Of a stretch of DNA of 64,000 nt, positions 18,001 through 30,000 are shown one piece after another. Position 1 is the stretch's first letter, and each line of letters opens with the position of its first letter. A program made the position numbers. This DNA comes from Podarcis gaigeae (Eukaryota), in assembly GCA_964106915.2 (NCBI GenBank), contig OZ066925.1; one strand, written 5' to 3'.

Positions 18001-21000
18001 ATAATTAACTGTTCCTATACAAAAGGATTTAGGCTGACTCACCAAGAATGGTTTTAATAAATGGCTACATAATTTCTTAAACCCCAGCAAAGTGTTAAAG
18101 CTGCTCTTCACGAAAACATGGCAGTTCAATTGCTTGTTAATACGGCAAGTGCCAAGAAGTATGCTGCAGTACCCAGTGGAGATCAATAACCAGCAAATCA
18201 AGTACTCGGGCTTGAAAAATGGAAATCTACTATTCTCTGCTAAACATTGGATTGATTGGTATCATTTTCCAATACTCTATTTTTTTTAAAGCGTATTTGG
18301 CACCCACAGCATCGCAATAAACCCAATCCATCATCTGCCGCTCTTTCCTCTCCCCATTTGCAAAGCTGTTAACTTCACAAAGGTCACCAAACAATACAGA
18401 AAACTACGAGCGGAGCCAAAACAACAAACGGTACAAAGGATCGTTTTATTTACTTGGGTGGACACATTAATGAATTTTGCTTAGTCTGGGAAAAGGCACA
18501 GTGCAGCCCTGGCAGAACTTGCCACGTACAGAGAATGATGCAAGAGCTTTGCCAGTAGAATGTACGGTAAATGGTAATTAAGCAATTAAACATGAAAACA
18601 ATGTGCGCCAGGTTGAACTAATGCTGCCTCATTCCTCTCGCAACTTTTTCCACCTCAGAAGTTGTTATACAGTGGTACCTCGGGTTACATACGCTTCAGG
18701 TTACAGACACTGCTAACCCAGAAATAGTACCTCGGGTTAAGAACTTTGCTTCAGGATGAGAACAGAAATCGTGTGGCGGCGGTGCAGCAGCAGTAGGAGG
18801 TCCCATTAACTAAAGTGGTGCTTCAGGTTAATAACAGTTTCAGGTTAAGAACGGACCTCTGGAACGAATTAAGTACTTGACCCAAGGTACCACTGCACTT
18901 CCAAAATGGCACATGACCTGTTTGGTTAGACCAGAGTCTTGCAATTGTCGGAGGGAAACAAGCCCGACTCTCTGGCCCCACACAGGGCAAAACCGCCCGA
19001 TTTCCCTTCCTCAACCCTCCTTAAGTAGACACTGACCCACACGCCCTACGATATGCTAGCCCTCTGTGTGCACCCAATTTCCATGAGAACTGCAGACTCT
19101 TCTTCAGTGCCTACAGCTTACTCTATCACGAAAGCATTCTTTATTAAATCCTCTACTCTTTCACTCTGCAAAACAACTGCCTAATACTTGAGTTGTTTCC
19201 TGTTGTTGTTGGGTTTTGTTTTGTTTTTTTGCTCCACACTCCAAAAGTCCTCCATTGTACCTGCTTCTCTTCAACTCCGTTTCACCTCTGCAAGTTCACC
19301 GCTCTCCATCTTTAATTTAATTTTATTTTTTAAAGAACAAGGGAAAGAAATTGGACAAGCAGTGTGTTACTTCCAGGCACTTGGCCCATTTTATGCCACT
19401 GTGCAGGTGAAATAATAGGAGATGGCTACAGAGGTGAATTCTCGTCTAAGGCCACAGGATTATCCATAGCTATGAAAGGTCAGCGTTATTGGTATACAAG
19501 AGTATGTATTTCTGCATTGATTTATTTTTACAGCCTTTTCTTAAGGCTCCAAAAACTGTGGAGACCTACCAGGAGGAAATGTTTCCCCAGCCACTTCTGC
19601 AACTACCTATCATTATGTGAACACCTACTGGACGAGATAAATGTTTAAAAGGACAAGATGATTACTAGCCTATCAACAGCTTGCAACTTCTAAAATAAAT
19701 TGTCTGACCTAAGGTAGACCCAAGATAAACCCAGAAGGGTAAAATGAATGCTGGTGCTTCCTTCTTCATTATTTACTCTCTCTTTTTTTGAACAATACTG
19801 CGGGGGTTTTTTTTGAAAGCACAGAGTTCAAATGTGAAAATGCAAAAAATAATAATAATCTAAGACATAAATAGATGCTCTTAAAAACCTGAGCCATTGA
19901 TTGTACCTAACCTGACCCCTGATGCCCTCACAGGCCCCCATCTGCAGTCTGCAAAGCAATGCCATTTTACTGTGATAAATGGTCACTTCCCGCAGCTCGC
20001 ACAAACTGCACGACAGACGGTGCTTCCCAAAGCCATCTTTTATCTCAAGTGTTTTAAAGAGAAATGTTTCTCTCTCTTTTTCTTATGTGGAGGAGAGATG
20101 GGGAGGGGGTGGGGAATCAATAACAAAAAGGCTTCAAGAAACTCCAGTATTTTCTGTCTGGCCAGGGCAAAACAGGCCAATATGAAATAAAATATACAGC
20201 CAGGAAAAAAAATATCAAAAGAAAGATAACTTCCCAAGGATGTTATTCAACTATGTTTCAGTGGACTCACCAAAATTAACCAGCCTAATTTAGTCCTGAT
20301 CATTAATTTCAGTGGGTCTACTTTAACTTAATTTAATACCACCCCAAGTGTTTGACCGTAGGGACCTATTTAAGCTAACGTGTGAATGAGAATATTTTAA
20401 ACCAGTGGTTCACAACCTATTTGAGACAAGTATCGGATTAGAATAACTATTGACCAGTCACTCATACTCCCTTCTTAATGAAGGTGGTAGAGGGAGTCAT
20501 GGTGACAAAGCTGCAAGCATTCTTGGTTGAGGCAGATTATTTAGATCCTTTCCAGTCTGGGTTCAGGCCTGGTTATGGGACTGAGCTGGCCTAGTTACCT
20601 AGTTATGCTATGGGATGCTGCAGAATACTAATTTATCCCCAACAGTACTTAATATCTGTATGAAGCTGCTGGGAATGGTCATTACGAGTTTTGAAGCAAG
20701 GTGACACCAGTATGCTCTTTTTCACTCAAGCTTTCTTTTTCCATATCATATGAATCAGGTGAGACTGTGGGCACCAGACTGATGCCCAGACAGAGTTAGG
20801 ATGAATGAGGGAATGTAAGTGGAGCTTGAATCTTGGCGAGATGGAAGCACTGTGGGCAAGTGGGCATTTTAAAGGTATAGCTCTGTGAGGGTACTGGAGA
20901 TCTCTTAACAACTCTTAGTACTCTTAAACCACAGTTCTTAAAATTCTTTTGAAGAAACCATGACTGTCTAAAGTGGTATCACAGTACTTTAAATGTATGG

Positions 21001-27000: not shown

Positions 27001-30000
27001 TCGGCAAAATACATTGAAAAAAATGGAAAAACACACAGCGGAAGCATTCGGCTTCCAAGCCGCGTTTGAAAACGGAAGCAATTACTTCTGGGTTTTCGGC
27101 GTTCGGGTTTTGAATTGCTCATCAACGGAGGTGTTCAAGAATGGAGGTCCCACTGTATTCTGAACGGATTGATTAAAGCAACACAGTAATTATGCTCCTG
27201 TGCACTGCTAGGCAGATGACTGAGCTCTCAGTTCCAATAGTGATGATCTCCTATTGGGGAGGGGGAAGAGTCTGAACACCACCCCTCTGCACTTTCCCCG
27301 GTAAGCGATCAGTGTTGGACCTCAGCTCTTCAGCTGAGAGCCTGAGATCCTTGCAGGCAGCAGTAAGAAGATCAGCTTGGACTAGAGCCATAATTGCACA
27401 AGCATAGCTGTGTTTCAATGGATAGTCTAATGTATCTATATCTTATTGGGCCAGTCCTGTGGAATGCTCTCCCAATAGAGATTCATCAGGTGAATACTAT
27501 TTCAACCTTAGACATTTGCAGAAAACTTTTCTTTGCTTCCAGGTTTATGCAGACAACTAAGGAAAACATTTTCTGTGATATTTAGCTAGTGATCGTTTTT
27601 AATTATTGTGTAGCTTTTACTGCATTATAATGGTTGTAAACCACTTGTAAAATGTTGTAAGATATTTGTATACTGAAATTTCATTAAAAAAAATTAATGT
27701 GTCTGTGGTACCTTAAATATATCCTGTCACAACTAAAAAGCTAGATTATTACTCAACACCCTCCCCCCCCTTTCCCTCTCATCTTGACTTTTTTAAACCT
27801 GGCACCTTCATAACATATATATTTAGGTGCCAGGAGAAAACATTCCTCTATAACGTTGGCTGATTAACATTCTATAGCTTTTAAAATGTGTTTGTAGGAA
27901 GGGGGTTATTGGGTTTTAACTGGTTTGTCTTATTATGTATTTTGTGTTCTCATTTTGTATTTTTATGTTGTGAACTGCCCTTCGTCTTCAGATGAAGGAC
28001 AGTATACCAACGAAATAAACAAATAAATAAGGTTTGTATTTGGCTTGTATAAAAAACATCATACTTTTAACATTATCCACGGTTGGTCTAGTTCAGATAA
28101 CATGACAAACCATGGTTAAAGGAGTTAAATGAAAGTGAATGCTTCCAATTCCTTTATGCCACACCAGCATAGAAGGAGGGAGTGGGAACACTGCAGCTCA
28201 TTCTCATCACACTAAATTATGGTTTAGCATGGCATCCAACCCAGGCCACTAAGTCCTAGTAAGTTTCACATCCTAACTCACAAACAGACCAATTATAAAT
28301 TGGAAACTTCTGATTTACCCTGGTGTTTAAAGGGAAACATGCCAAGGCTGAAGCCTTCACCTCTTTAGGAGAGTTACTTCCTAATCTCACATGCCTGTGC
28401 CCAGAGTCTTTTCTCTACTATTATACATGATCTGCACATGCCCCAAAATGCTGTTCTTTACTACTTCACATTTTACATGTAATCAGGGCCTCAAAAAAAG
28501 AAATAACACAGATTGTCCAACCTCCAACACGGAGCAATCTTGGACTGTGATCAACTCGTTTGTGCTAAAGCTGTCAGTGATTACTAAACAATTATATTAA
28601 ATTAGCTTCCACAATTAGCAGTCAGTGTAAGCAAACAGAAGTGAATTTAACATATGGCGTTCTTCGCAATTTCTGCAGAAAGCTGGGGGAGACTGATAAA
28701 TATGCCACATAATAATAATCTGCATTCTGAGAGAAGCTTGGAAACCAGCAAAGTTTCACAATTAAAATAATTTTGCCTCCTCTCTGTCAAAAAAAGTTGC
28801 GGTTAACAACCATTTATGCTACATTGGTTTCCTATCCTGAGGTGAAGAGAAGTCATCTTCTTGAAGATCTTTTCAACAAACACTGGGGGTGGGGAACAGG
28901 CTTTGAAAGATGGTCTAACACACTACCAAACCAAAATGCTTATACTGTAAAGGATGCACTACTCTAATACAGTGGTACCTCGGGTTAAGTACTTAATTCA
29001 TTCCGGAGGTCTGTTGTTAACCTGAAACTGTTATTAACCTGAAGCACCACTTTAGTTAATGGGACCTCCTACTGCTGCTGCACCGCCGCCACACGATTTC
29101 TGTTCTCATCCTGAAGCAAAGTTCTTAACCCAAGGTAATATTTCTGGGTTAGCGGCTTCTGTAAACTGAAGCATATGTAACCTGAAGTACCACTGTACAA
29201 CAGAATCCCTTGTGTCAACTGAAAGTCAATTTGTAACAAGATTTGACTCTGGAGATTTAGATCTCCCAGGAGGAACAGCTTGCATTGGAACATAGGTAGC
29301 TGCCTTATACTAAGTCGTAAAATCATAGAATTGTAGAGTTGGATGGGGCCATGAGTCCAGCCCCCTGCAATGCAGGAATGAGCCAATGGGTCAGTCCAAT
29401 GGGCCATCTAACTTGGTACTATATACACTGGCTGGCAGCAGCTATCCGGGGTTTCAAGCGGGAAGTATACGATGATATACAATATCTTTATCGTCATTGT
29501 CCCATACAGAACAATGAAATTGAAAATCTACATAAAACATTCAAAAACCCCTAAAAACTCTGAAACCCCATTTAAAAATTCAATATACTATAGAGACTCC
29601 TTATGCTGCTTTTAGAACCAGAATTGCATTTGTGTAGAAACTGTTTCTCAGGCGGCTAGTCCTGGTCTTTATAATCCTATACCTTCTTCCAGAAGGCAGA
29701 AGCTGAAAGAGATAGTTTCCGGGGTGTGTACTATCCTGCACTATCTCTGCAGCTTTCTTATAGCACCTGACAACATAGATTTGATCTAAGGTGGGAAGAG
29801 TGCACCCAATTATTCTCTCTGCAGTCTTTACTACCCTGGACAGCATTGGCTGTGCAGCTCCCAAACCACACACACAGACCATAAGTTAATACACTCTCCA
29901 TGGTGCAATGGTAAAATGCCATCAACAGGTCCTTTGAGAGTGGAGAGTGTTGTTGCACTCAGGTCCTGTTTTTCAGCTACTTCCCTCCAGCACCTGGTTG

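What the first reader, a model, noticed from the sequence alone, without database searches (positions are those of the whole stretch)
18670..29195. Gene-conversion-like tract between two inverted MITEs 10.3 kb apart
Seen by manual alignment: copies 18670-18895 (+) and 28970-29195 (-) are both 226 bp. They are identical over a central 115 bp (18734-18848 vs 29017-29131) but differ at 9 of the first 64 and 6 of the last 47 positions. The identical tract has variants absent from the other family-A copies in the window: cagTaggaggTcccattaActaaag and ggttaaTaacag, versus cagcaggaggccccattagctaaag and ggttaagaacag. Inference: recent ectopic gene conversion between the inverted copies, as expected from fold-back pairing. 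The same pairing could invert the 10-kb interval containing the RTE-X element.
Basis: partly seen in the sequence, partly recalled or inferred. Interest (0 to 1): 0.7.

Follow-up and report, generated by a model that had tools for sequence, protein, structure and literature searches.

The report
Gene-conversion patch between two nearby MITEs
Two old copies of a small DNA transposon lying 10 kb apart in opposite orientation share a perfectly identical 115-base middle while their ends differ as much as unrelated copies do, which most likely means one copy recently overwrote part of the other, a known kind of event.

Summary
Copies A (18670-18895, +) and B (28970-29195, -) are both 226 bp. They align without gaps with 15 mismatches: 9 in the first 64 positions, 6 in the last 47 and none in the central 115 bp.

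The clustering is not chance. None of 10,000 site shuffles reached the observed run of identity. Fisher's test gives 1.4e-5, and 1.3e-4 after stratifying for CpG.

In the flanks, A and B are as far apart (15/111) as either is from the six other family copies in the window (10-19/111). In those six copies the centre is at least as variable as the flanks. The tract carries four variants that none of the six others has. A and B have unrelated flanking DNA, so they are separate insertions.

Best reading, at about 0.65: a recent, short (39-115 bp), non-reciprocal ectopic gene conversion between two Tc1/mariner-type MITE copies, weakly favouring A as donor.

Not testable here: a genome-wide subfamily check, orthologous loci and raw reads. 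Fold-back pairing is not needed to explain the pattern, and nothing in the sequence shows an inversion.

This is a known phenomenon (Alu, LTR) and of low to moderate interest.

The parts
18670..18895 (+). MITE copy A, 226 bp, with terminal inverted repeats CAGTGGTACC...GGTACCACTG. It is flanked by TA on the left and CA on the right (a decayed TA). Weakly favoured as donor of the tract.
28970..29195 (-). MITE copy B, 226 bp, inverted relative to A, flanked by TA on both sides. It carries more private changes in its flanks than A (8 against 4 states unique among the 8 copies). Weakly favoured as acceptor.
18734..18848 (+). Largest possible extent of the identical tract in A (115 bp). It is bounded by the mismatches at 18733 and 18849.
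29017..29131 (-). The same 115-bp tract in B.
18794..18832 (+). Smallest possible tract (39 bp). It spans the four variants found only in A and B among the 8 copies: T at 18794, T at 18801, A at 18809 and T at 18832, which correspond to 29071, 29064, 29056 and 29033 in B. The minimum is 59 bp (from 18774) if the TGG variant shared with copy F was also transferred.
18896..28969 (.). The 10,074-bp spacer between the two copies. It has no other similarity between the two sides of the pair.
22377..24374 (-). Open frame of 665 aa inside the spacer, with a reverse-transcriptase domain of non-LTR type. No endonuclease domain was found upstream, and the clade (RTE or other) was not tested.
32707..32951 (+). 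Family copy C (245 bp, with a 16-bp tandem duplication near the 5' end). Used as a comparator.
33289..33513 (+). Family copy D (225 bp). Used as a comparator.
35206..35447 (+). Family copy E (242 bp, with the duplication). Used as a comparator. It is the copy nearest to B in the flanks (87%).
37811..38024 (-). Family copy F (214 bp, with an 11-bp internal deletion). It is the copy nearest to A in the flanks (90%) and shares GTGTGGCG with the A/B tract.
48294..48519 (-). Family copy G (226 bp). Used as a comparator.
53124..53368 (-). Family copy H (245 bp, with the duplication). Used as a comparator.

Best explanation
A and B are two separate, old insertions of one Tc1/mariner-type MITE family. 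They lie 10,074 bp apart in opposite orientation. After both had accumulated their own mutations, a DNA lesion in the middle of one copy was repaired by homologous recombination, using the other copy as template. The template could have been on the same chromatid or on the sister.

The outcome was a non-reciprocal patch of 39 to 115 bp, a non-allelic gene conversion. It replaced the acceptor's centre with the donor's, including the donor's private mutations (T, T, A, T).

Shown: the mosaic pattern, its significance, the independence of the two insertions, and the restriction of the four variants to A and B within this window.

Inferred:
- The mechanism (double-strand-break repair or synthesis-dependent strand annealing without crossover).
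- The direction (A to B, weakly).
- The timing. The tract has 0 differences, so its divergence is below about 2.6% at 95%, against 13.5% in the flanks. This places the event in roughly the last fifth of the copies' separate history.
For: 1. There are 15 mismatches in the 111 flank positions and 0 in the 115 central positions. Fisher's test gives 1.4e-5. Stratified by CpG the value is 1.3e-4 (8 mismatches at CpG positions, 7 elsewhere). Weighted by site variability in the other copies it is 1.65e-5.
2. In a GENECONV-like test, 0 of 10,000 shuffles reached the run of 41 polymorphic sites. A/B ranked first of 28 pairs. The Bonferroni-corrected value is 0.0028.
3. In the flanks A-B differ at 15/111 positions. 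A differs from the other six copies at 10-14 and B at 12-19. In the centre A-B differ at 0/115, against 12-25 for A or B versus the others.
4. The centre is not mutationally cold. In the six other copies, non-consensus cells number 59 of 690 in the centre and 45 of 666 in the flanks. Their private states number 1-17 in the centre, while A and B have 0 and 0.
5. Four variants in the tract are absent from 6 of 6 other copies. Their density (4/115) matches the private-mutation load of a single copy's flanks (A 5/111, B 10-11/111).
6. No similarity between the two loci extends beyond 18663-18895 versus 29202-28970, so they are separate insertions and not a segmental duplication.
7. In trees, A and B are identical in the centre, on a branch of 0.07. 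In the flanks they are not sisters in the best tree and lie 0.16 apart by path.
8. Precedent: partial Alu-Alu conversions that produce hybrid elements, with conversion acting among neighbours within about 10 kb (passages of PMC8230782).
9. Direction: A is nearly identical to copy F across the left tract boundary (5 mismatches in the first 109 aligned positions) and shares GTGTGGCG with it. The likelihood ratio for A as donor over B as donor is 2 to 21, depending on the counts used.
Against: - Only 8 copies, all from this window, could be compared. Whether the T-T-A-T haplotype is a genome-wide subfamily is unknown.
- The AU test on the flanks does not reject A and B as sisters (p = 0.127), so the phylogenetic incongruence is not formally shown.
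- The substrate is poor for homologous recombination. It is 226 bp long, and the homology left outside the tract is 64 and 47 bp at about 86-87% identity. From general knowledge, this is near or below the usual minimal efficient length for vertebrate recombination.
- Other close neighbours in the same window show no homogenisation. C and D, whose start positions lie 582 bp apart in direct orientation, differ at 16 flank and 22 centre positions. E and F differ at 13 and 23.
- The difference in private load between A and B (5 against 11) is not itself significant (binomial 0.21), so the donor call is weak.
- Raw reads were not available, so an assembly artefact is not excluded.
Confidence: 0.65

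Rival explanations
1. Subfamily or mosaic source. A and B were inserted independently, or B arose by a local hop from A, from source elements that already shared this centre. The flank differences are then source differences or later decay, and no exchange took place at this locus.
For: - The family has clear mosaic subfamily structure. The 16-bp duplication is present in C, E and H but not in G, whereas GTGCTTCAGG is in C, G and H.
- Part of the tract's distinctive sequence (GTGTGGCG) is also in copy F.
- The AU test does not reject an A+B clade in the flanks (p = 0.127).
- The genome-wide frequency of the haplotype is unknown.
Against: - A shared source explains shared variants but not 0 differences in 115 bp beside 15 in 111 bp.
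- 12 flank states are private to A (4) or B (8) among the 8 copies, and 8 of the 15 mismatches are CpG decay typical of ageing in place. The centre should then have collected a similar number, as it did in the other copies.
- If the sources themselves were mosaic, a recombination event is still required, only elsewhere.
- Physical adjacency of the only two carriers in the window is left unexplained, unless by a local hop. A local hop predicts differences spread evenly along the element.
Confidence: 0.17
2. Both centres, or one of them, were converted from a third copy of the family lying outside the window. The identity between A and B would then be indirect.
For: Nothing in the window excludes it. 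Conversion among dispersed repeats does not require adjacency (passages of PMC8230782).
Against: It needs two events with nearly the same end points, or one event plus a donor identical to the other copy. No third carrier exists among the 6 other copies here. The paper read states that conversion frequency falls with distance, which favours the neighbour as partner.
Confidence: 0.07
3. Assembly or polishing artefact. The centre of one copy was overwritten with reads from the other.
For: Identity is perfect and confined to repeat sequence. No read data could be examined.
Against: This is inference only. The tract is 115 bp and is bounded immediately by true differences at 18733 and 18849. Most reads of 150 bp or longer that cover the centre would also cover discriminating flank sites or unique flanking DNA, and would map correctly. 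Replacing about 10 real differences by mis-polishing while leaving 15 flank differences intact is unlikely.
Confidence: 0.06
4. Chance clustering of 15 independent substitutions in the two ends of the element, helped by more CpG sites in the ends.
For: The flanks hold 15 CpG positions against 9 in the centre, and 8 of the 15 mismatches are at CpG positions.
Against: The CpG-stratified probability is 1.3e-4. The probability weighted by site rates is 1.65e-5. After correction for 28 pairs the values remain below 0.006.
Confidence: 0.01

Closest known systems
Non-allelic (interlocus) gene conversion between neighbouring Alu elements in primates (Aleshin and Zhi 2010, known here only as cited in PMC8230782; partial Alu-Alu conversions in PMC8230782, passages read)
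   Same: - Short dispersed repeats of 200-300 bp and about 10% divergence.
- Partners within about 10 kb of each other.
- Partial tracts that give hybrid or mosaic elements.
- A non-reciprocal patch that carries non-diagnostic (private) mutations from one copy to the other.
   Different: The elements here are DNA-transposon relics (MITEs with terminal inverted repeats and TA duplications), not SINEs. The orientation dependence reported for Alu could not be checked because PMC2950799 is not held.
Fold-back of widely spaced inverted repeats in long single-stranded DNA (PMC10164571, abstract read)
   Same: Inverted repeats of Alu size, up to 25% divergent and up to 30 kb apart, can interact in cis.
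   Different: That pathway needs tens of kilobases of single-stranded DNA. It produces dicentric chromosomes and gross rearrangements by annealing and tail removal. It does not produce an internal patch of sequence transfer with both copies and the spacer kept intact, which is what is seen here.
Tigger/pogo-like MITEs of the Tc1/mariner superfamily (for example 'MITE_109', TIR TACAGTGGTACCTCGG..., in the Rhodnius prolixus table of PMC4678618, one passage read)
   Same: A TA target-site duplication followed by a terminal repeat that begins CAGTGGTACCTCGG. Small size and no coding capacity.
   Different: The resemblance covers only the first 14 bases of the terminal repeat and comes from an insect. 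No autonomous partner or transposase was found in the window. This is a lead to the superfamily branch, not a membership test.

Membership tests
Tc1/mariner-type MITE | Terminal inverted repeats | tested here: met
   8 of 8 copies begin CAGTGGTA and end with ACCACTG. In most copies about 18 bases are complementary (CAGTGGTACCTCGGGTTA / TAACCCGAGGTACCACTG). Copy A folds with paired ends at -31.3 kcal/mol, z = -2.08, and 7 of 200 shuffles fold as well.
Tc1/mariner-type MITE | TA target-site duplication | tested here: met
   TA is present on both sides in 7 of 8 copies. Copy A has TA on the left and CA on the right.
Tc1/mariner-type MITE | Short, non-coding, and in multiple copies with unrelated flanks | tested here: met
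   There are 8 full copies of 214-245 bp plus one fragment at 42401-42459. The flanks are unrelated.
Tc1/mariner-type MITE | A related autonomous element whose transposase matches the terminal repeats | not tested
   No transposase domain was found: 0 of 10 ORFs of at least 140 aa had any Pfam match. The genome outside the window could not be searched.
Non-allelic gene conversion tract | Two paralogous sequences at distinct loci that are not one duplicated segment | tested here: met
   Similarity ends at 18663-18895 / 29202-28970.
Non-allelic gene conversion tract | A contiguous run of identity longer than expected from the pair's overall divergence | tested here: met
   0 of 10,000 shuffles of polymorphic sites and 40 of 200,000 shuffles of all sites reached the observed run. 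The CpG-stratified probability is 1.3e-4.
Non-allelic gene conversion tract | The tract carries variants private to the pair | tested here: inconclusive
   Met within the window: 4 sites, absent from 6 of 6 other copies. Genome-wide privacy could not be tested.
Non-allelic gene conversion tract | Phylogenetic incongruence between tract and flanks | tested here: inconclusive
   In the centre A equals B. In the flanks they are not sisters in the best tree, but the AU test gives p = 0.127 and so does not reject sisterhood.
Non-allelic gene conversion tract | The pre-conversion state of the acceptor seen at the orthologous locus of an outgroup | not testable with these tools
   No eukaryotic genome collection is on hand.
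Inversion by recombination between inverted repeats | Both orientations of the spacer observed (in a population or an outgroup), or flanking features rearranged | not testable with these tools
   A crossover would not change the mismatch pattern. The duplications are all TA. No older repeat is split by A or B. The left/right ratio of derived states (2:8 against 3:3) is not heterogeneous (p = 0.30).

The most novel reading that the evidence does not exclude
The identical patch is the footprint of recurrent exchange between the two inverted MITE copies, and that exchange also flips the 10-kb spacer. The interval 18896-28969 would then be, or have been, a polymorphic inversion mediated by repeats of only 226 bp and about 87-93% identity. 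That is well below the repeat size usually associated with recurrent inversions.
Probability: 0.06. Interest if true: 0.45.

Novelty: new member of a known kind. Interest (0 to 1): 0.25.

Why it matters
If the reading is right, this is a clean single-locus example of interlocus gene conversion acting on 226-bp DNA-transposon relics about 10 kb apart. The process is well documented for primate Alu elements and for LTRs.

The practical consequences are modest but real:
- Conversion moves private mutations between copies. Ages and subfamily assignments of MITE copies derived from divergence can therefore be wrong locally.
- Pairs of inverted MITEs at this spacing are shown to meet physically, which makes them candidate substrates for small inversions.

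It does not open a new question. Two full-text searches listed no paper devoted to conversion between MITE copies, but that is weak evidence that none exists.

Tried and rejected
- Larger inverted duplication. Rejected: self-BLAST shows no similarity outside the elements.
- A mutationally cold centre as the explanation. Rejected: in the other six copies the centre is at least as variable as the flanks.
- CpG richness of the ends as the explanation. Rejected: the stratified probability is 1.3e-4.
- Formal incongruence test. Inconclusive: AU p = 0.127 with only 111 flank columns.
- Detecting a crossover from the left/right asymmetry of derived states. Uninformative: p = 0.30.
- Endonuclease domain upstream of the RT ORF. 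0 of 11 short minus-strand ORFs had a Pfam match at E up to 1, and a first attempt with frames containing stops returned an error. The RTE label therefore stays untested. The Atlas look-up gave only generic RVT_1 clusters, and PDB matches are to the RT domains of LINE-1 ORF2p and R2.
- Naming the MITE family from the literature. One paper holds the first 12 bases of the terminal repeat, in a Tigger-like insect MITE. This is a lead only. A search for lizard MITE papers gave nothing relevant in its listing.
- Aleshin and Zhi 2010 (PMC2950799) is not held, so the orientation and distance dependence for Alu is cited second-hand.
- Other collections. The bacterial and archaeal genome contigs, phage, plasmid and E. 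coli collections were not searched, because none of these collections holds vertebrate genomes. The genome-wide subfamily check therefore stayed undone.
- Rfam and ARAGORN found nothing in A, B or the tract.
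Full report
**What is there**

The window has no N. Copy A (18670-18895, + strand) and copy B (28970-29195, - strand) are both 226 bp. A and the reverse complement of B align without gaps and show 15 mismatches. These lie at 0-based offsets 9, 12, 22, 30, 38, 39, 41, 57 and 63, and at 179, 183, 190, 195, 209 and 214. That is 9 in the first 64 positions, 6 in the last 47, and none in the 115 positions between (18734-18848 in A, 29131-29017 in B). 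Every number in the finding is correct.

**The family**

BLAST of A against the window finds six more full copies (and for the full extent of H):

| Copy | Coordinates | Strand |
|---|---|---|
| C | 32707-32951 | + |
| D | 33289-33513 | + |
| E | 35206-35447 | + |
| F | 37811-38024 | - |
| G | 48294-48519 | - |
| H | 53124-53368 | - |

There is also a fragment at 42401-42459. All 8 full copies begin CAGTGGTA and end ACCACTG, with about 18 complementary terminal bases. TA lies on both sides in 7 of 8 copies; A has TA on the left and CA on the right. The copies are 214-245 bp long and non-coding.

This is the anatomy of a Tc1/mariner-type MITE. The start of the terminal repeat matches that of a 'Tigger-like' MITE listed in a table of PMC4678618 (one passage read). 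That is a lead to the pogo/Tigger branch and nothing more. No call names the organism, so I could not check that it is a lizard.

**Is the clustering more than chance?**

- Shuffling all 226 sites reaches a 115-bp identical run in 40 of 200,000 trials.
- A GENECONV-like shuffle of the 77 polymorphic alignment columns reaches the observed run of 41 in 0 of 10,000 trials. A/B is the best of the 28 pairs. The next are A/F (0.0024), B/F (0.021) and C/G (0.043).
- Corrected for 28 pairs the two values are 0.0056 and 0.0028.
- Fisher's test of 15/111 against 0/115 gives 1.4e-5.
- CpG positions are commoner in the ends (15 against 9), and 8 of the 15 mismatches sit at CpG positions. I therefore stratified: all 8 CpG mismatches in the flanks has probability 0.023, all 7 non-CpG mismatches has 0.0055, and the product is 1.3e-4.
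- Weighting each site by its variability in the other six copies gives 1.65e-5.

**Why a subfamily alone does not explain it**

In the flanks A and B differ at 15 of 111 positions. That is no closer than A is to the six other copies (10-14) or B is to them (12-19). In the centre A and B differ at 0 of 115, while each differs from the others at 12-25.

The centre is not a slowly changing part of the element. In the six other copies there are 59 non-consensus cells of 690 in the centre and 45 of 666 in the flanks. Each of those copies has 1-17 private states in the centre, whereas A and B have none. In their flanks A and B have 4 and 8 private states.

So both copies look old in their ends and indistinguishable in the middle. 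A shared source element would account for shared variants, but not for the absence of any later difference.

**The shared variants**

Four sites in the tract carry states found in 0 of the 6 other copies: T at 18794, T at 18801, A at 18809 and T at 18832. The motifs bearing them are exact only in A and B.

Other distinctive bases of the tract are not private. With a proper pairwise alignment, TGG at 18774-18776 is also in copy F, and the state of F at 18783 is hidden by its 11-bp deletion. The four private variants in 115 bp are about what one copy's own mutation load predicts: A has 5 derived states and B has 10-11 in 111 flank positions.

**Independence of the two loci**

Self-BLAST shows similarity only over 18663-18895 versus 29202-28970. 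That is the element, its TA, and five further bases that may be chance. The pair is therefore not part of a larger inverted duplication.

**Trees**

On the 115 central columns A and B are identical, on a branch of 0.07. On the 111 flank columns the best tree puts A with D, F and G, and B with E, C and H (support 72/82), with a path of 0.16 between A and B. The AU test does not reject a tree that holds A and B together (p = 0.127). With so few columns the incongruence is suggestive and not formal. I count this against the strength of the case.

**Most likely mechanism**

The best reading is a non-allelic gene conversion. A break or gap in the centre of one copy was repaired by copying from the other copy 10 kb away, without crossover. 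This left a patch of at least 39 bp (18794-18832) and at most 115 bp (18734-18848).

The pattern is shown; the repair pathway is inferred. Zero differences in 115 bp put the tract's divergence below about 2.6% (95%), against 13.5% in the flanks. The event is therefore recent relative to the copies' separate history.

On direction:
- A is nearly identical to F across the left boundary of the tract (5 mismatches in the first 109 aligned positions).
- A shares GTGTGGCG with F.
- A has the lower private load.

The likelihood ratio for A as donor is 2 to 21, depending on the counts used. However, the 5 against 11 split is itself not significant (0.21). I favour transfer from A to B only weakly.

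**Precedent**

PMC8230782 (passages read) reports 98 Alu-Alu conversions, 69 of them partial and giving hybrid elements. It cites Aleshin and Zhi 2010 for conversion acting among neighbouring Alus within about 10 kb, falling with distance. That paper itself is not held. The present case has the same size class, divergence, spacing and outcome, with a DNA-transposon relic in place of a SINE.

**What counts against the reading**

- The homology is short and diverged: 226 bp in all, with 64 and 47 bp at about 86-87% identity outside the tract.
- Other close neighbours in the window are not homogenised. C and D, whose start positions lie 582 bp apart, differ at 16 and 22 positions; E and F differ at 13 and 23.
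- Only eight copies were available.
- No reads could be inspected.

**Fold-back and inversion**

By the abstract of PMC10164571, distance and divergence normally suppress inverted-repeat structures. When repeats up to 30 kb apart do anneal in long single-stranded DNA, the result is dicentric chromosomes, not a conversion patch.

An inversion of 18896-28969 by crossover between the copies is possible in principle but invisible here:
- A reciprocal exchange does not change which positions differ between the copies.
- All duplications are TA.
- No older repeat is split by A or B that could report orientation.
- The left/right distribution of derived states (2:8 and 3:3) is not heterogeneous (p = 0.30).

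**The spacer**

It holds a 665-aa open frame on the minus strand (22377-24374) with a reverse-transcriptase domain (Pfam RVT_1, 7e-32; 1 of 5 ORFs scanned had a match). The frame resembles the RT domains of LINE-1 ORF2p (4e-23) and R2. The Atlas gives only generic RVT_1 clusters. No endonuclease domain was found in 11 short upstream or downstream frames. It is a non-LTR retrotransposon remnant, and 'RTE-X' is untested. Nothing else in the window has a Pfam match (0 of 10 ORFs of at least 140 aa).

**Verdict**

The rivals are:

| Rival | Probability |
|---|---|
| Mosaic source elements or subfamily | 0.17 |
| Conversion from a third copy | 0.07 |
| Assembly artefact | 0.06 |
| Chance | 0.01 |

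It is a new instance of a known process and of low to moderate interest.

Noticed in passing
window 264-398, 16891-16986, 38069-38210, 44922-45070, 48567-48643: A second short repeat family of about 135-157 bp. Its copies match themselves in reverse complement (81-85%), so it is a palindromic, MITE-like element. Two of its copies lie 44-47 bp from the 5' ends of family-A copies F and G.
   Followed up: partly
window 50564-51425: A dense block of direct and inverted repeats of about 60-160 bp units at 80-97% identity, partly self-complementary over 350 bp. Three overlapping ORFs of 176-235 aa cross it, and none has a Pfam match.
   Followed up: no
window 31655-31883 and 63028-63255: A pair of direct copies of another repeat, 229 bp long and 94.8% identical, lying 31 kb apart. 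They were not examined for mosaic structure.
   Followed up: no
window 30687-30760 (-): A weak tRNA-like match (Rfam RF00005, 30.1 bits against a gathering score of 29) that ARAGORN does not call. It lies next to a short repeat also found at 41067-41123 and 60764-60826, so it may be the head of a tRNA-derived SINE.
   Followed up: no
window 32720-32758; also copies E (35206-35447) and H (53124-53368): A 16-bp tandem duplication (GGTTACATACGCTTCA) near the 5' end of three of the eight MITE copies (C, E, H). Its distribution does not match that of the GTGCTTCAGG variant (C, G, H). Either the duplication recurs or the subfamilies are themselves mosaic.
   Followed up: partly
window 24427-24755, 49205-49520, 55891-56189: Three copies (77-85% identical) of a repeat that lies just upstream of the reverse-transcriptase ORF. 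It may be the 5' part of the same non-LTR family.
   Followed up: no
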